The translations under genes and the position numbers were made by a program. The notes below the pieces were generated by a model that made no database searches, was not told where the DNA came from, and saw only the letters and a list, made by a program, of their open reading frames with translations. Source: a virus (lineage: Duplodnaviria > Heunggongvirae > Uroviricota > Caudoviricetes). From it: DNA of 13,401 bases. The first letter of the stretch is position 1; each line of letters opens with the position of its first letter. The stretch spans positions 1 through 13,401 of the IMG/VR virus record IMGVR_UViG_2737471844_000004; one strand, 5' to 3'. This document shows positions 1 to 13,401 of the stretch, piece by piece.

Positions 1-51
1 ATGTGTTGTAAAATCAGTCGAAGCCTAACAAGTGTGAATGACCTTTTAACC

Positions 52-762
52 ATGACGCAAGTGTTCAATGTTTACTGTGATGAGTCCTGCCATTTAGAAA
101 ATGATGGTCAAAAAGCAATGGTGCTCGGGGCTGTTTGGTGTCCTCTCAATAAGAGGTTTGGTATTGCTAATCGAATACGAGAGATAAAGCTCAAACATGG
201 CTTGGACCCACGTTTTGAAGTCAAATGGACTAAGGTTGGGGCTTCTAAAATTGAGTTTTATAAAGATTTGGTGGATTACTTCTTTGATGATGATGATCTT
301 CATTTCCGGGGATTGGTTATTCCTGACAAAACTCAGCTAAAGCATGATGATTTCGATCAAAGTCATGATGACTGGTACTATAAAATGTATTTTGTCATGT
401 TGAAAACTATTTTTGAGCCAGGAAGTCAATATAGAGTCTTTATTGATATAAAAGATACTCTTGGTCATGAGAAAATACTCAAGTTACATGATGTATTATG
501 TAACAATGCATATGATTTCTCTAGGAAAACAATTTCTAATATTAAGAGAATTAATTCTCATGAAGCTGAGCAATTGCAACTTGCTGATTTATTAATAGGT
601 GCCCTTAGTTATATGCATAGAGGTTTAAATGAAAGTAAGCCAAAACTTTTATTAATTAACAGGATCAGAGAAAGGAGCGGCTATAATCTAACCCAAAATA
701 CTTTGCTTCGAGAGTTAAAGTTTAATCTAATGATCTGGCAATCTAATGGGGGATGTCGATGA
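52..762 (+). CDS. DUF3800-like protein (family call from motif memory); start could instead be ATG at 1
   Basis: ORF 1..762; N-terminal MTQVFNVYCDES and later QLQLADLLIGALSY match the two motifs I recall for DUF3800 (N-terminal DES, C-terminal QxADxL). AT-rich. Stop TGA 760-762 overlaps next start (ATGA). Confidence 0.65.
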   Translation: MTQVFNVYCDESCHLENDGQKAMVLGAVWCPLNKRFGIANRIREIKLKHGLDPRFEVKWTKVGASKIEFYKDLVDYFFDDDDLHFRGLVIPDKTQLKHDDFDQSHDDWYYKMYFVMLKTIFEPGSQYRVFIDIKDTLGHEKILKLHDVLCNNAYDFSRKTISNIKRINSHEAEQLQLADLLIGALSYMHRGLNESKPKLLLINRIRERSGYNLTQNTLLRELKFNLMIWQSNGGCR

Positions 763-1244
763 GTCCGGTTTGGCTACCCGAGCAAATTTTATTAGAACAC
801 TATCAAGGTGAGTGGGAGGCCTACTTTGATAGTGTTTATCAAGCATTCCACCGCGATTTCGTTTTATCTAAACCAGTTTTTCGTGGCGTTCGATTAGGAT
901 TGAAACGTCATCCAGAATATGAAGGTAAATCAGCCACATTCTGGCATATGATTAGCACTGGAAATGTAGAAAGTGAGAGAGTGCCGGATATTCGGCGCTG
1001 CGAAAGAATTAGTTGGCCTAAGCCTGTTATAGATAATAGTACCGATACCTGTTTGAAAGTCTGGGCTGAGCCCAAAGGTAAAAATAGACGTATCCACATT
1101 TGGTTTGAGGATGAGGGATATCTGGTGGTTTTAGATGATAGAGGCGATTTTATGCTTCCATGGACAGCGTTTTATATTGAACATAACCATCAACGAAAGA
1201 AATACAATAAGAGATGGGAAAGACACAATCATAACGGTATTTGA
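759..1244 (+). CDS. Hypothetical protein, translationally coupled partner of the DUF3800-like gene
   Basis: ORF 753..1244; ATG at 759 has GGGGGA 6 nt upstream and overlaps the upstream stop. No recognisable motif. AT-rich like its partner. Confidence 0.6.
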   Translation: MSPVWLPEQILLEHYQGEWEAYFDSVYQAFHRDFVLSKPVFRGVRLGLKRHPEYEGKSATFWHMISTGNVESERVPDIRRCERISWPKPVIDNSTDTCLKVWAEPKGKNRRIHIWFEDEGYLVVLDDRGDFMLPWTAFYIEHNHQRKKYNKRWERHNHNGI

Positions 1245-4350: not shown

Positions 4351-4638
4351 TCACTGACTGCAATTTTTCGATCCAGGGTATTTCCTGAATGCCTTACCAT
4401 TGGGCTGATGTAATCCCATCCCGGCATGTGCCCGGCTGATGGTTTCGCGCATCTCCCCGAAATTATCCTGCCGTGCTGGTGGGCGTGCTGCCTTGCGGAT
4501 ACATTCCGCGCGACGTTTTGCCGCCTGTTCCCGTGCCTTGTCATCATTCGCCAGCATGATGACCTCAGCCCACCGCGCCGCCGCTCTCCGGTACAGACCA
4601 CGCGCTTCCAGTGCTTCCGCTTTGCTGTCGTGAATCAT
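4351..4638 (-). CDS. PerC-family-like transcriptional regulator
   Basis: ORF 4351..4638. N-terminus MIHDSKAEALEARGLYRRAAARWAEV and KRRAECIRKA match the PerC/Pch signature as I recall it. Start ATG overlaps the FinO-like stop (ATGA). Confidence 0.6.
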   Translation of the reverse strand: MIHDSKAEALEARGLYRRAAARWAEVIMLANDDKAREQAAKRRAECIRKAARPPARQDNFGEMRETISRAHAGMGLHQPNGKAFRKYPGSKNCSQ

Positions 4639-5231
4639 GCGCCTGTTTTCTCCTTTGCTGCCCGGCGCTGACGTTTGCGCTTCTCATTCAGCGCCACCAG
4701 CCGCGTTTCTGCGTCCTGTTGTTCCTGTGGTGTCACCTCGCCGCACGGCTGGCCTTTCAGGTCGTAGCGTACCCCACCAGCCATTAAGGCGCGGTAATAG
4801 CGCGGACACTGCGCATAAGATGCCAGCGTCGCACGTAATGCCCCTGGCCCGAATGCCAGCCCCCTGACGGCGAGATCCTGCATCAGGTCGTCGAATATCC
4901 CCACCTTAAGCGGCTTCGGTGCTTCCCGGCTGAATAATTCAGGCCACAACTCAGTGAGGCGGTTAATGCGCCTGCGGTTTTTTCGCTGCCGTTTGGTCAT
5001 ATGCCGCCACGGTGTCGCCCCTGTGGGCTTCTGCTGCGCTTTCTGGTTACCGGGCATCACTTTATGCGCCGATGTGGTTTTATCCTGCTGCTGCTGCTGC
5101 TGCTGCTGCTGCGCCGCCTGCGTCGTTTTCTGCGGCGTGCCGTAAATGCCTTTCGGTTTTCTGTTAATAGTCAGCTTAGTCATGCTTTGCCCCATCGTTT
5201 TTACTGATTGTTTCATATCCGGTACTTTCAT
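4635..5231 (-). CDS. FinO/ProQ-domain RNA-binding protein with N-terminal poly-Q tract; start codon uncertain
   Basis: ORF 4635..5231. LWPELFSREAPKPLKVGIFDDLMQDL ... YDLKGQPCGEVTPQEQQDAETRL parallels the ProQ N-terminal/FinO domain. Q9 run encoded by the repeat at 5086-5112. No clear SD at the first ATG; internal ATGs are possible starts. Confidence 0.7.
   Translation of the reverse strand: MKVPDMKQSVKTMGQSMTKLTINRKPKGIYGTPQKTTQAAQQQQQQQQQDKTTSAHKVMPGNQKAQQKPTGATPWRHMTKRQRKNRRRINRLTELWPELFSREAPKPLKVGIFDDLMQDLAVRGLAFGPGALRATLASYAQCPRYYRALMAGGVRYDLKGQPCGEVTPQEQQDAETRLVALNEKRKRQRRAAKEKTGA
5086..5112. repeat. Perfect (CTG)9 / (CAG)9 trinucleotide repeat, in frame within the FinO-like CDS
   Basis: Plus strand reads CTG nine times from 5086 to 5112. 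Confidence 0.95.
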
Positions 5232-5539: not shown

Positions 5540-7288
5540 TTATAAAAATTCCTCGGTTCTCTCCGTTTGTATAACGTTGGTTTGTATTCGTCCTTTAAAA
5601 CCTCTTGTCAGGTATTCAGCCCCATATTCTCTTGCTGCTGACTTCATGGCCTTACCAAAATCACCGACACTTAATATTTCTTCTTCCCCCATATACTCCA
5701 TAAAGGCGAGATATAGTCTGTACAGGCTTGTACGCGGATTAAGATCAGTTAATCTCTTACCGCCTCCCATCATCATCCCATGCGGTTCATCAAGAAATGC
5801 AAGCGCCGCACATAACCCAATGACAGGATCAGTTTCCTGTTTTATTTTCAGAGCTTCGGCACCGTCGCGCTGCTCCAACAATAATTCCCGTGCTTTTTCT
5901 GGATCGGAAAAGTTAGCCAGTAATCGACGAATAATGACAGGTATTTCCGCCGCTATCTTTTGCGGTAACTCTTTATCCTTTTCGGTCTCCCTTACAATAT
6001 TATCGAACCGAAAAATTACACGTCGACGCGCAACGCCTCCGGCCCGTTCGGTGAATGTCATCGGCACGTTATTTGTTGCCAGCACGACGGACCTGATAAT
6101 TGTTGTGAAACGCTTTTCATATTTCGGGTTAATTTCAACTGGATCTCCACCCGTTATTTTTTTGATGCCGGATCCTTCACCTGTATATTTCGGCTGGTCT
6201 GCCAGGACAATAAGACGACTTCCGACAACCTGCGCACGCCCGCCAGCATCATCAAGCGATGTCATTTCAGCGCTTACCGTGTTCTGTTTCCCTGCCAGAA
6301 GGGTGGCTATGTGCGTGATTGTGCTCTTGCCGCTCCCGCCTTCCCCTGTGGCCTCAATAAACATCTGCCAGTCGTACCGGTTCGCCATAATCATGTACAG
6401 CGCGGCGCATATACGCATCATCTTTCGCGGGTCTTTTCCTGCGGCGTGATCAAGCCATTTATGAAAGTTTGGCGCGTTGTCGCGGATGTTCTCCCCTGGT
6501 ACTGGTGGCGTGTACTCAATGCCGTTATGCGTGGTGATCCAGTTATCCGGCGAGTGCGGGGAAAATTCGCCAGTTTTCATGTCAAGCACGCCATTAGAGA
6601 ACGGCAATAAATCACCTGACGGTTCCCCCATTGGCCTGGCCATAACTTTTAAAGCATCCACAGCATTACTTATTGCTCTCCGACTAAACGATGTTCCGTT
6701 TTCTTCGTAAATAGCCACCATTTCACGACTAAGATCCAGTGTGCTTACCGGAACCCAAAAATCATCGCGCCAGACGTGGACAACCTCACTCTCCTGATTC
6801 ATTGCTACATCCTGAAATCGTTCAGCTAAAAGTTTTGCCCTTTGGCTGTCCGCCATTCTGGAAAGAGATATTTTGTGTTTTTTCTCGGTCCTTCCTGACA
6901 GAATTTCTCCGCGCTCAGCCTGTTCGCGGATCCGTTGCAGGTAGTCGCGCCAGTTCTCCGGTTCCTGGTCGGTGATGCCTTTGTATAATTTCGCCTCCTG
7001 TACGCCAGCCAGCGCCAGCTTTTCAGCGATAGTATTGATCTGGATTGGCTCTATCTCCCCCGCGATATAGACACGCGCAAAACGGCGTTTCTCGTCAATA
7101 ATGCGGATATTCGCCAGGTCTGCCAGTTGCTTTGGCCCCAGGTAAACAGGAGGCACGTTATCGCCGTGTTTTCGTCCTTCACTTTCAATCCAGTGTTGAG
7201 CATGGGCGTAAGCATCCGTCCCGGCAAAAATGATTACCTCAGTGAATTTATCCTTCGGCTGATATTTTAGACTCGGTGCGTTTTTCAC
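5540..7288 (-). CDS. Primase / SF3 (D5-like) helicase replication initiator, P4 alpha-like
   Basis: ORF 5540..7288, 582 aa. Walker A GEGGSGKST, Walker B-like LIVLAD, motif C VLATNN. GTG start overlaps upstream stop (GTGA) with GGGAGG 6 nt upstream. Confidence 0.85.
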   Translation of the reverse strand: MKNAPSLKYQPKDKFTEVIIFAGTDAYAHAQHWIESEGRKHGDNVPPVYLGPKQLADLANIRIIDEKRRFARVYIAGEIEPIQINTIAEKLALAGVQEAKLYKGITDQEPENWRDYLQRIREQAERGEILSGRTEKKHKISLSRMADSQRAKLLAERFQDVAMNQESEVVHVWRDDFWVPVSTLDLSREMVAIYEENGTSFSRRAISNAVDALKVMARPMGEPSGDLLPFSNGVLDMKTGEFSPHSPDNWITTHNGIEYTPPVPGENIRDNAPNFHKWLDHAAGKDPRKMMRICAALYMIMANRYDWQMFIEATGEGGSGKSTITHIATLLAGKQNTVSAEMTSLDDAGGRAQVVGSRLIVLADQPKYTGEGSGIKKITGGDPVEINPKYEKRFTTIIRSVVLATNNVPMTFTERAGGVARRRVIFRFDNIVRETEKDKELPQKIAAEIPVIIRRLLANFSDPEKARELLLEQRDGAEALKIKQETDPVIGLCAALAFLDEPHGMMMGGGKRLTDLNPRTSLYRLYLAFMEYMGEEEILSVGDFGKAMKSAAREYGAEYLTRGFKGRIQTNVIQTERTEEFL

Positions 7289-7575
7289 TTCTTACCTCCC
7301 GCAACCAACATTGCCCGGATTTTTTTTATATTCGTGGCTGCACGTCTCGCCACTGCCTGTTGTTTGTTTTCCACCAGAATAAAATCACGATCAAACTGAC
7401 GGCGCGGCATTACGCAGTCATATTCGTAAGCCTCACGGCGGTAGGTGATATTGCCTGGCGTAACGTGACGAATAACCACCCGTCCCCCGCGTCTGGTGTC
7501 CCGGAAAATATCACCGGGGCGGATTTCAGGCCGAGAGAGGCCGCTGGCAGTAAAGCCAGAATTTTTCTTTTTCAT
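7285..7575 (-). CDS. Hypothetical basic protein (96 aa)
   Basis: ORF 7285..7575; ATG 4 nt after the upstream stop; coupled to the primase gene. Confidence 0.6.
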   Translation of the reverse strand: MKKKNSGFTASGLSRPEIRPGDIFRDTRRGGRVVIRHVTPGNITYRREAYEYDCVMPRRQFDRDFILVENKQQAVARRAATNIKKIRAMLVAGGKK

Positions 7576-8364: not shown

Positions 8365-8581
8365 GGTGCACCTCCTGCACATCAGCCATGATAATTTTTC
8401 CGGCCTTATCCAGTGCCTGATCGGCTTTTAGCTGCACAAATGCTAAATAATGGGAGATGCATTCTGATTCTCTGGCTGCGTGTTTATGCGCCACACCAGC
8501 GATAGCAGAAATCTCAATAAGTGAATCCATCAGCGTTTTGATAGCGTCTACCGCTGCATCAGGCCATGTTGCATTACACAT
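8357..8581 (-). CDS. Small hypothetical protein (74 aa)
   Basis: ORF 8357..8581; AGGAGGTGG SD; start ATGTGTAA overlaps upstream stop by 8 nt. Confidence 0.6.
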   Translation of the reverse strand: MCNATWPDAAVDAIKTLMDSLIEISAIAGVAHKHAARESECISHYLAFVQLKADQALDKAGKIIMADVQEVHHA

Positions 8582-8939
8582 GTTCCACCTCCTGGCGAAT
8601 ACGGGCGGCGAATACCATCACGCAGCCATCAGGAGATTGCTGACGTGCTTCCTGTTCGCTGGTGGCCTCGATGTGAATTACGCGCGGTTGTGCCGTGCTC
8701 AGGGCGATAAAACGCCAGATAAAATTGTTCTCGCATTTCTGAATAAACAGCGTGTTTTCTTCGCGCCCTTTCCATGTTGCCGAGATATAGCCCATGTCAT
8801 TGAGCATCTCGCAGGCATCAACCAGCGTATCAGCAGCTACGTGTACAGTGTTTTTACCGTCAGCTATGCAATCACGGTGCACCGCCAGGAAGGTGTATAT
8901 AAATTTAGGGTGAGTTTGGGTATGCTGTGTTCCAGCCAT
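8574..8939 (-). CDS. Hypothetical protein (121 aa), first gene of the leftward operon
   Basis: Internal ATG (plus 8937-8939) of the long minus-strand open frame, with GAGGT 7 nt upstream and a promoter/operator region immediately 5'. Natural-looking sequence MAGTQHTQTHPKFIYTF... Confidence 0.6.
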   Translation of the reverse strand: MAGTQHTQTHPKFIYTFLAVHRDCIADGKNTVHVAADTLVDACEMLNDMGYISATWKGREENTLFIQKCENNFIWRFIALSTAQPRVIHIEATSEQEARQQSPDGCVMVFAARIRQEVEHV

Positions 8940-9028
8940 AATCGTTACCTCATTTAACGGTTTGGTTAGACGCCCCGCTACTGCCGCAAACAGTTCGGGG
9001 CGTTGTCGTTTACATCCTCTTACTGAGG

Positions 9029-9104
9029 TGTGATTTAAATTAAATTTAACTGAATCACAGGTCAAGTATTTTTTGTGATTCTTTTTTGTGTATACTGAAT
9101 CACA
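9029..9104. promoter_or_regulatory. Divergent promoter region with two TGTGATT-N17-AATCACA operator-like palindromes
   Basis: Palindromes at 9029-9059 and 9074-9104. Plus-strand -10-like TATACT at 9091-9096 lies inside the second; minus-strand -35 TTGACC (9060-9065) and -10 TAATTT (9037-9042) overlap the first. Confidence 0.55.
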
Positions 9105-9126
9105 TCTTTTGTTTAGGAGAATGCAC

Positions 9127-9432
9127 ATGGCAAAAAACACTATCAACGACAAATCAAAACAGATTTCAATTCGTATCCCACATGATGCTTTTGAAGGCAT
9201 GGAATCCGTAAAACTGGACGGTGAAAGCAACGCCGGATTCATAGTAACCGCCATGCGCGGTGAGATCGCCCGCCGCCAGGCAGAAGGAAGCGGAGAAAAT
9301 CCCCTGGTTTCTTCGCTCGATGCGCTGGCGCAGGTGGAAAAAATCGGAGTCAAAGCTGCCGAGGAGATCGGGCAGCTCGTCACCGTCGCACGTGAAGAAC
9401 TCCAGCGCCGCAAGGCCAAAGAATCAGAATAA
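9127..9432 (+). CDS. Small putative DNA-binding regulator (RHH-like); candidate island repressor
   Basis: ORF 9088..9432; ATG at 9127 with AGGAGA 6 nt upstream. Pattern ISIRIP (beta), HDAFEGMESVKL, NAGFIVTAMRGEIARR (helices). The only plus-strand gene in the backbone. Confidence 0.65.
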   Translation: MAKNTINDKSKQISIRIPHDAFEGMESVKLDGESNAGFIVTAMRGEIARRQAEGSGENPLVSSLDALAQVEKIGVKAAEEIGQLVTVAREELQRRKAKESE

Positions 9433-9667
9433 TAACTATCATCGCCGTGGTGTGAGGAACTCCGGCGCATTGCTTTACAGGTACACAGAATGACCAACAA
9501 AGAATCAACCAATACACCATCACCGGCACGGAAAAGACGGCGCAGAAAGATAGAGCACGAATCAGAAAGATTCGCGCCATGTGCTTTTGCCCTTGAGCAA
9601 TTCCTTAAAGAGTACAGGCGCACAAAAATGGGATCGCATACCTGGAAAACATCGCGGCATGGCAATG

Positions 9668-10106
9668 TTAAAGAGCATGAATAGCCCACCAGCAAGCCAG
9701 CACACTGATCACATTGCCCACCAGCCGCAAATCTGGCATTGTTGGCAATGTGTTCAAGTGTGTAGCTTTCCCACTGGTGGCCCTCTGCAGTCGCCTTTGT
9801 TTTATCCAGAACGAAATCAGACATCAGATTGATCAGCACCTGGTGACCTGACAAAATCGCATCAGTCACGCCACCAGCAAAATTTTTTGCTTTCCGGACA
9901 GCGTGGCCAACGGCATTTTGCAGCGAAATATTCTGCATTTCTGGCGTGCTGTAGTAACGGTGATCAGTGCCTTCACTCTGTGCGACCACAACGCTATAAT
10001 CTGCCTCGTAGACAGTAAGCAATATGGCGCAGTAGGCTATTCGTTCACAAAGGCGCTCCGGCAACGGGGCGCTTTCTCTTTTTGTAACGGTCAGAGCGTT
10101 ACACAT
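9668..10106 (-). CDS. Hypothetical ORF with well-defined 5' end but unresolved 3' end; possibly frameshifted
   Basis: ATG at 10106 overlaps the AntA-like stop by 8 nt (ATGTGTAA) and starts MCNA like the gene at 8581. First ~130 aa look protein-like, then Cys/Ser-rich junk; no in-frame stop until 8574. An alternate frame ends at plus 9668. Confidence 0.3.
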
Positions 10107-10899
10107 GGCTGTTTTCCTCCATGCGACGGGCTAACCAACGCTGCGAAAGGCGAATTAATTCAGCTTTCCGCTGGTGGTAGTCCTGGCCTAACTCAATCAG
10201 CGTGATATTGCTCTGCTCAAGGTAAGAAAGGTGCTCAAGCTGCAACACGCTCATGTGGTCGCGTGGTTCACCTGTAATGCCGTTCGCCTGCGCCCACTGT
10301 TTTGCAGTCATGCCACCCAGCACGATACGCGCCAGCATGTTCGCTTCCGTGGTGTAGTGGTGCTGGAGTGTGTTTTTACCCAGTTCAGCCCGGTACGCCT
10401 CCAGCGCGGCACACATTGGCTTAAAGTAGCTGGCAACTGTGATACGGGCTTTCAGTTCCCGGCGTAACGCTGCGGAACGTACAGGCGCAACCTTGTGTAG
10501 CTCCTCCTCGCATTTGATAAAGTACTGACGAACGGCGCGCCCCTGTTCGGTGCGCTCGACCATCGCCAGTTCTTTCGCCATGTTGATAGTGCTCAGGTAG
10601 TCGTGCTCTACACGTTGGCGAGATTTTGCGCTCACCGGATTGGGGGAGGTCAAATTTTCTACGAATTCAAAATCCACGCCCTTTTTAAATCCGTACTCAT
10701 CAATGCGTCCTTTAATCCAAGTTGTGAAATCACGCTTCACACCCAGCGCCTTATGCAACGCTCTGGCGCTAACAATATTGGTTTCACGCCCGCCAATAAC
10801 GCCGGAAATAACCGGGATAATTTCGCCGAAATTTTGTTGGCTCTGGTTTTCAGGCCGAACGAAGCCCTGCCCCTGTACGGGCGTTTTTCGCAGTTTCAT
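10099..10899 (-). CDS. AntA/AntB-type phage antirepressor-like protein
   Basis: ORF 10099..10899. IPVISGVIGGRETNIVSARALHKALGVKRDFTTWIKGRIDEYGF ... MAKELAMVERTEQGRAVRQYFIKCEEEL matches the AntA N-terminal pattern I recall. SD AGGAG 5 nt upstream. Confidence 0.6.
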   Translation of the reverse strand: MKLRKTPVQGQGFVRPENQSQQNFGEIIPVISGVIGGRETNIVSARALHKALGVKRDFTTWIKGRIDEYGFKKGVDFEFVENLTSPNPVSAKSRQRVEHDYLSTINMAKELAMVERTEQGRAVRQYFIKCEEELHKVAPVRSAALRRELKARITVASYFKPMCAALEAYRAELGKNTLQHHYTTEANMLARIVLGGMTAKQWAQANGITGEPRDHMSVLQLEHLSYLEQSNITLIELGQDYHQRKAELIRLSQRWLARRMEENSHV

Positions 10900-10977: not shown

Positions 10978-11196
10978 TCAGGCTGATGTGTTTCGGCGTT
11001 CTTCCAGCCAGCGATTAACCTCTACCGCATCGAATGCAGTGCTTTTCTCACCCAGTTTGATGGGCTTAGGCATCTTCCCGCTACGCACCCAACGATCGAG
11101 CGTTGATAAGCTGGTACCCAGCAATTCAGCCAGGCGATAGCGGCGGATATAGCCAGTTGCAGGGATTGCGGTTTGAAGTATTGGTTGGTTTTTCAT
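10978..11196 (-). CDS. alpA: AlpA-family DNA-binding regulator (excisionase-like)
   Basis: ORF 10978..11289; probable start MKNQPIL at 11196. RRYRLAELLGTSLSTLDRWVRSGKMPKPIKLG ... VEVNRWLEERR is the typical AlpA signature. Confidence 0.8.
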   Translation of the reverse strand: MKNQPILQTAIPATGYIRRYRLAELLGTSLSTLDRWVRSGKMPKPIKLGEKSTAFDAVEVNRWLEERRNTSA

Positions 11197-11308
11197 ATGC
11201 CCCATTACCTTTGTTGTTGGTTTGTGATTCGTAATAGGGGCATTAAATAACAAATGAAATGATGTGTGTGTGAGTTTTAGAAAAAACACTGTGACTTTTC
11301 TTATTTCA

Positions 11309-12147: not shown

Positions 12148-13401
12148 TTATTTATTAGATTGCGTGATGTCAGAACATATCATGTTTTCTAAATTCACCA
12201 GCAAATCAGTCCACTGTGCCAGCGCCGCTTTGCGCTCATCAAAATATTGATGGCGGTTATAAATGCCCTCTACGCCTTTTATGCGGTGGTTAAGGCATCG
12301 TTCAGCAACGATCGGGTCAACTCCCAATGCTGCTAAATGTGTTCGTGCTGTTCGCCGGAAGTCGTGAATTGTAAAGTTGGGGACGTTCGGCATTTCTGCT
12401 CTGACTTTTGCCAATGCAACAGGAAGGGTGCTTTCCTGGATGTGAGGGATCATTCTGTGCTGCATTTTTCTGGCAGGTAATACCCATGCGCTATTGCATG
12501 AAAATGTGTGCAATTCTCGCAACCATTCTATGGTCGCTGGTGGTAATGGTATGTCGATAGCATCGCCATTTTTAGTTCGTTGTTCTGGTAGATGCCAAAT
12601 CGCGCCATCTAAGTCGAATTCATCCCACCTGGCGGCGCATAACTCCATTTTTCTGACACACAATGCTAAGAGCAACTTAAAGGTTAATTCGTTCTGGCGG
12701 CTGAATCCTTTGGCTTTACGCATGGCCTGAAAAAATTGGATTAATTCGTCACGGTTCAGCCAGCGATCACGAGATAATTCTTTCCCACCAGCATCTGATA
12801 CTTCAAAAGCTGAGCAGGGGTTAACCTCCAAAGCAAGGCGTTTAATACCGTAGTCAAATATTCGACGTGTCCACCGAAGAACGTCAGTAGCAATTGTTGG
12901 AGCGCCTCTATCAACAATGCTTTTAAGCATGGCATCAATATGGCGTGGTTTTACATCTTCAACCTTCATGTGGCCTATGGCAGGATTTATGTCTTTATCA
13001 ATGCGCCTGCGGAGAATATCTGGGTGTTTCCATCGGGGAAGTATTTGCCGTGCAAAGTATTCGGCGGCAAGTTCAGAAACATGCAGCGCGTTTTTTTCAG
13101 CTTCTATTTTTGCCAGTGCTTCGGCTTTACGCTGCTGTTTTTCTGCGGCTACGTCATATCCCAAAGCAACTCGTGCGGAAAGTTCTTTTGCCAGTTCCCT
13201 GGCTTTTGATAACGATAATTCAGAATATGAACCAATAAGCATGGCACGAGATTTTCCTGCCAGTTTATATCGAAACCGCCATGTCGGGGATCTATCCACC
13301 TCTCTATACCGGAGATATAGCCCACCACCATCAGCACGACCTTCGAAATGTTCTCCGGCTTTTATCCATGCGCGGATCTGCATATCTGTGAGTTTTGGCA
13401 T
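12148..13401 (-). CDS. int: P4-type tyrosine integrase (site-specific recombinase)
   Basis: ORF 12148..13401, 417 aa. N-terminus MPKLTDMQIRAWIKAGEH...DGGGLYLRY and C-terminal HDFRRTARTHLAALG...ERCLNH...IYNRHQY carry the R...HxxR...Y catalytic signature. ATG sits exactly at the window edge. Confidence 0.95.
   Translation of the reverse strand: MPKLTDMQIRAWIKAGEHFEGRADGGGLYLRYREVDRSPTWRFRYKLAGKSRAMLIGSYSELSLSKARELAKELSARVALGYDVAAEKQQRKAEALAKIEAEKNALHVSELAAEYFARQILPRWKHPDILRRRIDKDINPAIGHMKVEDVKPRHIDAMLKSIVDRGAPTIATDVLRWTRRIFDYGIKRLALEVNPCSAFEVSDAGGKELSRDRWLNRDELIQFFQAMRKAKGFSRQNELTFKLLLALCVRKMELCAARWDEFDLDGAIWHLPEQRTKNGDAIDIPLPPATIEWLRELHTFSCNSAWVLPARKMQHRMIPHIQESTLPVALAKVRAEMPNVPNFTIHDFRRTARTHLAALGVDPIVAERCLNHRIKGVEGIYNRHQYFDERKAALAQWTDLLVNLENMICSDITQSNK

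What the first reader, a model, noticed from the sequence alone, without database searches (positions are those of the whole stretch)
8940..9432. Divergent promoters overlapped by two identical-geometry palindromic operators, with an RHH-like candidate repressor
Two TGTGATT-N17-AATCACA palindromes lie 45 bp apart centre to centre. One overlaps the plus-strand -10 and the other the minus-strand promoter elements. This is the layout of a lysogeny-type genetic switch. The spacing does not fit CRP or LexA sites. The adjacent plus-strand gene has an RHH-like pattern and is the natural candidate repressor, in an island type usually described as AlpA-activated.
Basis: partly seen in the sequence, partly recalled or inferred. 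Interest (0 to 1): 0.5.

Follow-up and report, generated by a model that had tools for sequence, protein, structure and literature searches.

The report
Swappable repressor-operator switch in phage satellite
An E. coli phage-satellite island of a type thought to lack its own repressor carries a small ribbon-helix-helix protein gene next to four matching binding sites that cover two back-to-back promoters, and comparison with related islands indicates the protein reads those sites and most likely keeps the island's replication genes silent.

Summary
TGTGATT-N17-AATCACA occurs twice, at 9029-9059 and 9074-9104, with centres 45 bp apart and 0.07 matches expected by chance.

The sites are better described as four 9-bp TG-N5-CA subsites with centres 22, 23 and 22 bp apart. 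They cover a leftward promoter (TTGACC-17-TAATTT) for the Icd-like/primase operon. They also cover the -10 (TATACT) of the rightward promoter of gene 9127-9432.

In 20 related loci the geometry is fixed, but the subsite sequence falls into about 8 classes. These classes track the protein's beta-strand. They do not track AlpA type, the first leftward gene, primase type or the protein's C-terminal domain. Operators plus codons 1-18 behave as one swappable cassette.

The model island EcCICFT073 carries the module with a truncated protein. EcCIMP1 lacks it.

A plus-strand-specific hairpin at 8969-9004 also suggests an ~80-nt antisense RNA against the Icd-like start region.

Verdict: a new, uncharacterised member of a known kind.

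The parts
9029..9059 (.). Left operator (OL): TGTGATT-N17-AATCACA. It consists of subsites H1 (9029-9037, TGTGATTTA) and H2 (9051-9059, TGAATCACA).
   Evidence: The same position and geometry occur in 20 related loci with class-specific sequence.
9074..9104 (.). Right operator (OR): TGTGATT-N17-AATCACA. It consists of subsites H3 (9074-9082, TGTGATTCT) and H4 (9096-9104, TGAATCACA).
9060..9065 (-). -35 element TTGACC of the leftward promoter PL, directly abutting subsite H2.
   Evidence: TTGAC at this position in 13 of 20 loci, and TTGAAA, TTGCAA, TTAACG or TTGTTG in the others.
9037..9042 (-). -10 element TAATTT of PL, 17 bp from the -35, inside the OL spacer. The inferred transcription start is near 9030, within H1.
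   Evidence: A TAnnnT hexamer lies at 17-bp spacing in 15 of 20 loci. This is inferred, not mapped. The strict scanner did not call it.
9091..9096 (+). -10 element TATACT of the rightward promoter PR, inside the OR spacer. The -35 is weak and T-rich. The inferred start is near 9103, within H4.
   Evidence: TATACT, TATAAT, TATAGT or TATATT lies at a fixed distance (29-30 nt, mostly 30) before the ATG in 13 of 20 loci.
9127..9432 (+). Gene for the 101-aa YlcI/YnfO-family RHH protein, the candidate repressor. The beta-strand is residues ~11-18 (KQISIRIP), the helices are 19-28 and 35-52, and a long C-terminal helix spans 61-100.
8574..8939 (-). First gene of the leftward operon, an Icd-like protein of 121 aa. 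It is followed by small genes, DUF4222 (7285-7575) and a D5_N/DUF5906 primase-helicase (5540-7288).
   Evidence: NCBIfam NF033153, E 6e-23. RefSeq annotation of a 99.9% identical locus. Pfam.
8969..9011 (+). Plus-strand hairpin (8969-9004) followed by the U-rich tract TTGTCGTTT. It is a probable intrinsic terminator of a transcript antisense to the Icd-like 5' region.
   Evidence: RNAalifold gives -18.3 kcal/mol and 12 pairs on the + strand, against -9.3 and 8 pairs on the - strand. 98.6% of cells pair on +, including 25 G.U, against 86.8% on - with no G.U.
8934..8967 (+). Putative first stem-loop of the antisense RNA. The anti-Shine-Dalgarno CCUC sits in the loop and the anti-start codon in the stem.
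   Evidence: The MFE fold of 8933-9013 on the + strand is -31.6 kcal/mol with z -4.5; the - strand gives z -1.6. 76.8% of cells pair across loci, and 8 of 11 pairs show double changes, but the alignment is imperfect.
8921..8926 (+). Putative -10 (TATGCT) of the antisense promoter, lying inside the Icd-like coding start.
   Evidence: TATGCT, TATGAT or TACGAT is conserved at this position across loci whose first genes differ, often with a TG extension or a TTGTGT 17 bp upstream. This is inferred only.
9490..9684 (+). 64-aa basic protein gene downstream of the RHH gene, probably co-transcribed. Function unknown.
   Evidence: ORF and RefSeq annotation. Matches phrog_21027, function unknown. Present in EcCICFT073, L016, L019 and L020; absent in L013, L015 and L017.

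Best explanation
The 101-aa product of 9127-9432 is a ribbon-helix-helix DNA-binding protein. Dimers of it recognise four 9-bp TG-N5-CA subsites (consensus here TGAATCACA), spaced about two helical turns apart across 9029-9104. Base specificity comes from the N-terminal arm and beta-strand (codons 1-18).

The long C-terminal helix most likely joins dimers into tetramers or larger assemblies, so that widely spaced subsites are bound cooperatively. Occupied sites cover the -10 and start of the leftward promoter PL, abut its -35, and cover the -10 and start of the protein's own promoter PR.

In the resting island the protein therefore shuts off the Icd-like/DUF4222/primase (replication) operon and limits its own synthesis.

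Shown here: the sites, their fixed geometry, the RHH fold, and the co-inheritance of subsite sequence with the beta-strand.

Inferred: actual binding, repression rather than activation, the oligomeric state, and how a helper phage or AlpA lifts repression. Leftward read-through from the alpA promoter or a helper anti-repressor are possibilities.
For: The palindromes are exact and far above chance.

The same four-subsite layout occurs at fixed distances from the conserved TTGAC and from the ATG (66 nt in most loci). This holds in 20 loci from Escherichia, Klebsiella, Enterobacter, Edwardsiella, Serratia, Yersinia, Salmonella, Erwinia, Xenorhabdus, Photorhabdus and Phytobacter.

Within each locus the four subsites match each other. 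Between loci they fall into about 8 classes paired with beta-strand motifs:
- KQISIRIP with TGAATCACA
- QLTTVRVP with TGAAACACA
- QSLTARIP with TGTCTTACA
- QQLNARFP with TGAATACCA
- QMTTLRVP with GTGATATAC
- QMKNIRFP with GTGTACACA
- QLKNIRIP with AATACACAC
- QALKARVP with GTGGCCCAC

Controls exclude the other candidates:
- L019 and L025 share 97% identical AlpA but have different subsites.
- L019 and L020 share identical subsites but their AlpA proteins are 24% identical, and they carry different primase families.
- L013, L015, L020 and L025 share 86-92% identical first leftward genes but belong to four subsite classes.
- The window and L015 or L025 share a 96% identical C-terminal domain but have different subsites.

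The DNA is mosaic. Against L025, codons 19-101 are 90-92% identical but codons 1-18 only 57-58%. Against Edwardsiella L023, codons 1-18 are 83-88% and the operators 91% identical, but codons 19-101 only 65-72%. Most E. coli matches to the gene begin at nt 45-50.

A Mantel test of beta-strand against subsites gives r 0.42, p 0.0008.

Against: There is no experimental binding or expression data.

The promoter hexamers fail a strict consensus scan, and PR has no recognisable -35.

Operators and N-terminal codons are adjacent, so part of their co-inheritance could be simple linkage. The non-subsite intergenic bases also correlate with the beta-strand (r 0.37).

Beta-strands QLTTVRVP and QMTTLRVP differ by only two conservative residues yet pair with different subsites. 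Residues outside the strand must therefore contribute.

In EcCICFT073, AlpA over-expression alone induces the island (PMC6092414). This protein is therefore not an absolute block, at least in its truncated form.

EcCIMP1 lacks the gene.
Confidence: 0.72

Rival explanations
1. The RHH protein does bind the sites, but its main role is not repression of the replication operon. It could be a pure autoregulator, an activator of PL, an RHH antitoxin paired with the downstream 64-aa protein, or a ParG/omega-like centromere-binding protein.
Against: The 64-aa protein matches no toxin family and is absent from several loci that keep the switch. No ParA-type ATPase is nearby. Two of the four subsites flank the -10 and abut the -35 of the leftward promoter, a position that normally blocks RNA polymerase.
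Confidence: 0.15
2. The palindromes are bound by a different factor: AlpA, the primase/initiator (as origin iterons), the Icd-like protein, or a host protein such as CRP. In that case the RHH gene is merely adjacent.
For: TGTGA/TCACA resembles CRP half-sites. PICI genes are reported to be AlpA-activated (PMC6092414). PHROG labels Icd-like families 'transcriptional repressor'.
Against: Subsite sequence varies between islands of the same species, which excludes a host factor. It does not follow AlpA type, the first leftward gene or the primase family. The CRP spacing of N6 is not met, since the pentamers are 21 bp apart.
Confidence: 0.06
3. The repeats are chance or a relic, and the switch no longer functions in this island.
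For: Many such islands are degraded, and EcCICFT073 carries a truncated protein and a degenerate right operator.
Against: Here the gene is intact, both palindromes are perfect, and the chance expectation is 0.07. The module is conserved across many genera with concerted change of all four subsites.
Confidence: 0.03

Closest known systems
Phage P22 immI region: Mnt repressor with Pant/Pmnt and sar RNA (from general knowledge, not tested here)
   Same: An RHH repressor with an extra C-terminal helical oligomerisation segment acts at divergent promoters of a mobile element. An antisense RNA against a ribosome-binding site adds a second layer of control, if the antisense RNA proposed here is real.
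   Different: There is no detectable sequence relationship beyond the fold; hhalign to Mnt covers 14 columns at probability 1.4%. Mnt uses one 17-bp operator with half-sites one turn apart, whereas here four subsites lie two turns apart. The controlled genes differ: an antirepressor there, an Icd-like/replication operon here.
NikR and FitAB operator geometry: RHH dimers held about 22 bp apart, GTATGA-N16-TCATAC and TGCTATCA-N14-TGATAGCA (recalled from the literature, not tested here)
   Different: The bridging element here would be a single 40-residue helix, not an ACT-like metal-binding domain or a PIN toxin. There are two such units side by side, with no ligand or toxin evident.
SaPI/Gram-positive PICI master repressor Stl (Rpr) with divergent stl/str promoters (PMC6092414)
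   Same: The position and logic within a phage satellite are the same. A repressor gene is transcribed towards int, divergent from the excision/replication operon, and repressor alleles vary strongly between islands.
   Different: Stl proteins are large HTH repressors relieved by binding helper-phage proteins. This is a 101-aa RHH protein, no inducer is known, and the literature attributes Gram-negative PICI induction to AlpA.
YlcI/YnfO small proteins of lambdoid prophages DLP12 and Qin (NCBIfam NF041551)
   Same: The N-terminal 42-residue domain matches the family model at E 4e-18. Most database relatives are 45-65-aa proteins that consist of this domain only.
   Different: Those proteins lack the C-terminal helix. 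No function has been described for them in the searched literature, and PHROG lists them as unknown. Their genomic context was not examined here.
P4 and P1 immunity by processed RNAs (CI / C4) upstream of kil/icd-type genes (PMC10111431)
   Same: The controlled operon is the same kind, an Icd/Kil-like first gene followed by a primase. EcCIMP1 at the same thrW site has an ash-family segment in place of the RHH switch.
   Different: There is no C4 or IsrK match here, even at E up to 10. Control here is by a DNA-binding protein plus, probably, a cis-antisense RNA from the opposite strand.

Membership tests
Ribbon-helix-helix (MetJ/Arc) superfamily | Beta-strand followed by two helices in about 45 residues. 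| tested here: met
Ribbon-helix-helix (MetJ/Arc) superfamily | Strand with alternating residues ending in R-x-P, and a G-x-S/T/N turn before helix 2. | tested here: met
   R16 and P18 are invariant, and the motif [GD]-E-[ST] sits at 32-34. hhalign places Arc R13-W14-P15 on R16-I17-P18, pairwise E 0.002.
Ribbon-helix-helix (MetJ/Arc) superfamily | A curated sequence model of an RHH family matched above threshold. | tested here: not met
   The best hit is PSK_trans_fac at 16.6 bits against a cutoff of 28.3. It is sub-threshold in 30 of 45 homologues. A PDB sequence search found no RHH protein.
Ribbon-helix-helix (MetJ/Arc) superfamily | Dimer formed by an antiparallel two-stranded sheet that enters the major groove. 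| not testable with these tools
   Only monomer models were available. Palindromic 9-bp subsites in some classes fit one dimer per subsite.
YlcI/YnfO family (NCBIfam NF041551) | Score above the curated cutoff of the family model. | tested here: met
   65.3 bits against a cutoff of 30, residues 9-50. RefSeq annotates the identical gene under this name.
Gram-negative phage-inducible chromosomal island (PICI) | Integrase, AlpA-type regulator and primase in one orientation, in an island of about 10-20 kb at a tRNA or other specific att site. | tested here: met
   int at 12148-13401, AlpA at 10978-11175 and primase at 5540-7288, all on the minus strand. In the 99.9% identical locus the island lies at tRNA-Thr next to proA, the same site as EcCIMP1.
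Gram-negative phage-inducible chromosomal island (PICI) | Excision, replication and packaging induced by a helper phage. | not testable with these tools
   This has been shown only for relatives, EcCICFT073 and EcCIMP1 (PMC6092414, PMC11773190).
Lambda-type two-repressor switch (CI/Cro) | A second DNA-binding regulator, made from the opposite promoter, competes for the same operators. | tested here: inconclusive
   The first leftward gene is Icd-like, with no HTH or RHH Pfam or NCBIfam hit. PHROG nevertheless labels its families 'transcriptional repressor'. It does not co-vary with the operators.
Type II toxin-antitoxin pair with an RHH antitoxin | A toxin gene immediately downstream in the same operon. 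| tested here: not met
   The 64-aa downstream protein matches no toxin family. It is missing in L013, L015 and L017.
CRP binding site | TGTGA-N6-TCACA, conserved for a host factor. | tested here: not met
   The pentamers are 21 bp apart. The half-site sequence differs between E. coli islands.
C4 / IsrK (P1/P4-type immunity RNA) | A match to Rfam C4 or IsrK upstream of the icd-like gene. | tested here: not met
   No Rfam match at gathering score in the window. No match at E up to 10 in 8850-9200.

The most novel reading that the evidence does not exclude
This RHH protein is the long-missing resident repressor of a large subset of Gram-negative PICIs. Its N-terminal arm and strand, together with the four subsites, form an exchangeable specificity cassette that defines at least eight island 'immunity groups'. 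It works together with an ~80-nt cis-antisense RNA that blocks translation of the Icd-like first gene. That RNA may be assisted by the island's own ProQ/FinO protein, in the manner of FinP/FinO. AlpA-dependent induction then acts by overriding or bypassing this double lock.
Probability: 0.3. Interest if true: 0.72.

Novelty: new member of a known kind. Interest (0 to 1): 0.52.

Why it matters
The founding paper on Gram-negative PICIs states that a global repressor in these islands is 'unclear', and that it is 'a mystery' why they seem to rely on an activator (AlpA) while Gram-positive islands use a master repressor (PMC6092414). Later papers list the YlcI/YnfO gene only as an accessory 'prophage-associated protein' (PMC13612085).

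The comparative evidence here points to a concrete repressor-operator pair at the head of the replication operon. The gene is found in 12% of complete E. coli genomes, and in truncated form in the model island EcCICFT073. There the small genes carry late-added locus tags, which I take to mean they were missing from the original annotation. This makes the open question directly testable with simple reporter and gel-shift experiments.

The naturally occurring set of about eight matched protein/operator classes is also a ready-made panel of orthogonal small repressors. It gives a clean system for studying how RHH strands read DNA.

Tried and rejected
- Rfam scans of the window at gathering thresholds, and of 8850-9200 at E up to 10, found no C4, IsrK or other family. 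A P4/P1-type immunity RNA was therefore rejected.
- The strict sigma-70 and terminator scanner found nothing in 8800-9300. Promoter calls were instead based on positional conservation.
- A PDB sequence-profile search gave only a weak match (E 0.014) of residues 45-86 to the helix-hairpin-helix domain of Hef. AF2 models this region as one continuous helix, so the resemblance was not adopted. The invariant Gly74 remains unexplained.
- hhalign against P22 Mnt was not significant.
- tblastn of the protein against 50,697 phage genomes found nothing, so the module appears to belong to islands rather than to the phages in that collection.
- Extra TGAATCACA-like sites were sought as further targets. 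One lies just upstream of alpA (11223-11231), but the count is not above chance: 5 found against 3.8 expected. No consistent alpA-proximal site appears in other loci.
- AlpA, the first leftward gene, the primase family and the RHH C-terminal domain were each tested as alternative correlates of operator class, and each was rejected.
- I first assumed the island was EcCIMP1-like throughout. EcCIMP1 in fact lacks this gene.

Full report
**Context**

The window is an E. coli chromosomal island. A 99.9% identical copy in strain JNU lies at tRNA-Thr beside proA. On the minus strand it carries:
- a tyrosine integrase (12148-13401)
- an AlpA-type HTH gene (10978-11175)
- an AntA/AntB antirepressor gene (10099-10899)
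- a leftward operon that starts with an Icd-like gene (8574-8939), runs through small genes and DUF4222, and ends with a D5_N/DUF5906 primase-helicase (5540-7288)
- ProQ/FinO, PerC and DUF2213 genes further left

This is the gene set of a Gram-negative phage-inducible chromosomal island (PICI). Only two genes, 9127-9432 and 9490-9684, point the other way.

**Observation**

TGTGATT-N17-AATCACA occurs exactly twice, at 9029-9059 and 9074-9104. The chance expectation is 0.07 even when two mismatches are allowed.

Extending the arms shows four 9-bp TG-N5-CA subsites: TGTGATTTA, TGAATCACA, TGTGATTCT and TGAATCACA. Their centres are 22, 23 and 22 bp apart, about two helical turns, so all lie on roughly one face of the DNA.

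**Promoters**

A strict consensus scan finds none. I therefore aligned the same region from 20 related loci, anchoring on a conserved GTCAAG.

- On the minus strand this anchor reads TTGAC(C), a -35 directly abutting subsite H2. A TAnnnT hexamer (TAATTT here) lies 17 bp further on, in the left spacer, in 15 of 20 loci.
- On the plus strand, TATACT or TATAAT lies in the right spacer at a fixed distance (mostly 30 nt) before the ATG. Its -35 is poor.

The inferred starts fall inside H1 and H4. The two promoters are thus back-to-back, and each is bracketed by a pair of subsites. This is inference from conservation, not mapping.

**The protein**

NCBIfam places residues 9-50 in the YlcI/YnfO family. 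PHROG lists it as function unknown, and Pfam gives only a sub-threshold hit to PSK_trans_fac.

AlphaFold2 models an extended segment at 11-18, helices at 19-28 and 35-52, a flexible linker, and one long helix at 61-100. The N-domain modelled alone reaches pLDDT 86.7.

**Who binds the sites?**

Homologues fall into discrete beta-strand motifs. I fetched loci for each. In every locus the geometry is the same. The four subsites of one locus resemble each other, and the subsite sequence changes with the strand motif; the eight pairings are listed under the best explanation.

The same motif in E. coli, Klebsiella and Edwardsiella goes with the same subsite, while different motifs within E. coli go with different subsites.

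Controls show that subsite class is independent of four other features:
- AlpA type: 97% identical AlpA proteins go with different subsites, and 24% identical AlpA proteins go with identical subsites.
- The first leftward gene: genes 86-92% identical span four classes.
- The primase family.
- The protein's own C-terminal domain: 96% identical domains go with different subsites.

At the DNA level the pattern is reciprocal. Against E. coli locus L025, codons 19-101 are 90-92% identical but codons 1-18 only 57-58%. Against Edwardsiella L023, codons 1-18 and the operators are 83-91% identical but the rest only 65-72%. In 654 E. coli genomes that carry the gene, most matches begin at nt 45-50, just past the strand codons.

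Operators plus the N-terminal arm and strand therefore behave as one exchangeable specificity cassette. Physical linkage contributes to this; the non-subsite bases also correlate with the strand. Linkage alone does not explain why four separate subsites change in concert while the promoter hexamers between them stay put.

**Mechanism proposed**

One RHH dimer binds per subsite. Several classes have subsites that are themselves 9-bp palindromes, which fits this.

The C-terminal helix would bridge dimers two turns apart, as a separate domain does in NikR and a partner protein does in FitAB (recalled from the literature). Binding would occlude PL and PR. The island's replication operon is then held off and the repressor autoregulated.

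How induction occurs is open. alpA lies upstream and is co-oriented with the leftward operon. Leftward read-through from the AlpA-activated promoter across the convergent RHH operon is therefore one untested possibility, and a helper-encoded anti-repressor is another.

**What is known**

The 2018 description of Gram-negative PICIs says a global repressor is 'unclear' and that AlpA is an activator. The EcCIMP1 paper and a 2023 survey describe these islands as unidirectional and AlpA-driven. A 2026 survey lists YlcI/YnfO only as a prophage-associated accessory gene. I found no paper that treats this switch, though the library lacks most subscription journals.

The model island EcCICFT073 carries the module between alpA and the Icd-like gene. 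Its three small genes carry late-added locus tags. Its RHH protein is only 59 aa, which looks like an in-frame loss of residues about 52-94 (the whole C-terminal helix), and its right operator is degenerate. This may be why no repressor phenotype was seen there.

EcCIMP1, at the same thrW site and with a near-identical integrase, has no such gene. An ash-family remnant sits upstream of its Icd-like gene instead. The RHH switch is thus one of at least two alternative control modules.

The family is small: 70 clusters at 50% identity among 1.84 billion representatives, of which about 15 have both domains. It is absent from the phage genome collection.

**Second layer: a probable antisense RNA**

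Between PL and the Icd-like start lies a GC-rich hairpin (8969-9004) followed by TTGTCGTTT. Across 18 loci it is conserved with compensatory changes.
- On the plus strand 98.6% of cells pair, including 25 G.U cells.
- On the minus strand those same 25 cells are mismatches, and only 86.8% pair.
- The RNAalifold energy is -18.3 kcal/mol on the plus strand and -9.3 on the minus strand.

The structure therefore serves a plus-strand RNA, and every annotated gene to its left is on the minus strand.

The stretch 8933-9013 folds on the plus strand into two stem-loops (-31.6 kcal/mol, z -4.5), while the minus strand gives z -1.6. The first loop shows the anti-Shine-Dalgarno CCUC.

A -10-like TATGCT, TATGAT or TACGAT sits at a fixed place inside the first codons of otherwise different first genes. 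I read this as an ~80-nt cis-antisense RNA that blocks translation of the Icd-like protein, a likely toxic division inhibitor. It would be comparable in logic to sar, SymR or FinP. My confidence in this is about 0.55.

No Rfam family matches. The island's own ProQ/FinO gene is a speculative partner for the RNA.

**Verdict**

It is an uncharacterised member of a well-known kind, an RHH repressor with repeated subsites at divergent promoters. Its interest comes from where it sits and from its modular specificity classes.

Noticed in passing
window 8921-9011, + strand: A conserved hairpin that is structured only on the plus strand, with a U tract after it, a second stem-loop showing the anti-Shine-Dalgarno, and a -10-like element before it. 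Together these suggest an ~80-nt RNA antisense to the start region of the Icd-like gene. No Rfam family matches.
   Followed up: yes
L027 (E. coli CFT073, EcCICFT073) 9243-10053: The model Gram-negative PICI has the same divergent module. Its RHH protein is only 59 aa, an apparent in-frame loss of the C-terminal helix (…EIKRRQ|RRKAKEQE). Its subsites are GTGGCCCAC, and the right-hand pair is degenerate. The three small genes carry late-added locus tags.
   Followed up: partly
L028 (E. coli MP1, EcCIMP1) 16352-17067: EcCIMP1 sits at the same tRNA-Thr site with a near-identical integrase, but lacks the RHH gene. An 'ash family' pseudogene lies upstream of its Icd-like gene instead. Islands at one site therefore carry alternative control modules.
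   Followed up: partly
L023 2380, L025 2381, L011 3862, L021 2382: Some loci have a fifth cognate subsite 21-23 bp to the left of H1, downstream of the inferred PL start. The window has none at the equivalent place, about 9007.
   Followed up: partly
window 11223-11231: A one-mismatch copy of the subsite (CGAATCACA, minus strand) lies about 18 nt upstream of a possible alpA start codon. The count of such matches in the window is not above chance, and no consistent equivalent was seen in other loci.
   Followed up: partly
window 9292-9432 (protein residues 56-101): The C-terminal domain shows a weak sequence resemblance to the helix-hairpin-helix domain of Hef (E 0.014), and has an invariant Gly74 in what AlphaFold2 draws as one continuous helix. 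Its real fold and role (oligomerisation or DNA backbone contact) are unresolved.
   Followed up: no
window 9490-9684, + strand: A conserved 64-aa, very basic protein (KRRRRK motif) is encoded just after the RHH gene. It is present in EcCICFT073 and several other loci, absent in others, and matches only a PHROG of unknown function.
   Followed up: no
window 4635-5231, - strand (about 5080-5120): The island's ProQ/FinO-family protein contains a run of nine glutamines encoded by a CAG/CAA-type repeat. The island also encodes a PerC-family protein (4351-4638).
   Followed up: no
window 8574-10106, - strand: An open frame of 510 codons runs from inside the convergent region through the whole switch into the Icd-like gene. 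It is antisense to the RHH gene and is almost certainly not a gene. RefSeq annotates only 8574-8939.
   Followed up: no
window 10050-10075, + strand: A terminator-like hairpin (11 pairs, then CTCTTTTTGT) lies just before the convergent antA stop. It is a possible end of the RHH operon transcript, leaving about 360 nt untranslated after 9684.
   Followed up: no
window 1-1244, + strand: The left-end cargo here is a DUF3800 protein plus an unknown 163-aa ORF. The otherwise near-identical island in strain JNU carries an orc1/cdc6-family gene at that end, which fits a variable accessory or defence slot.
   Followed up: no
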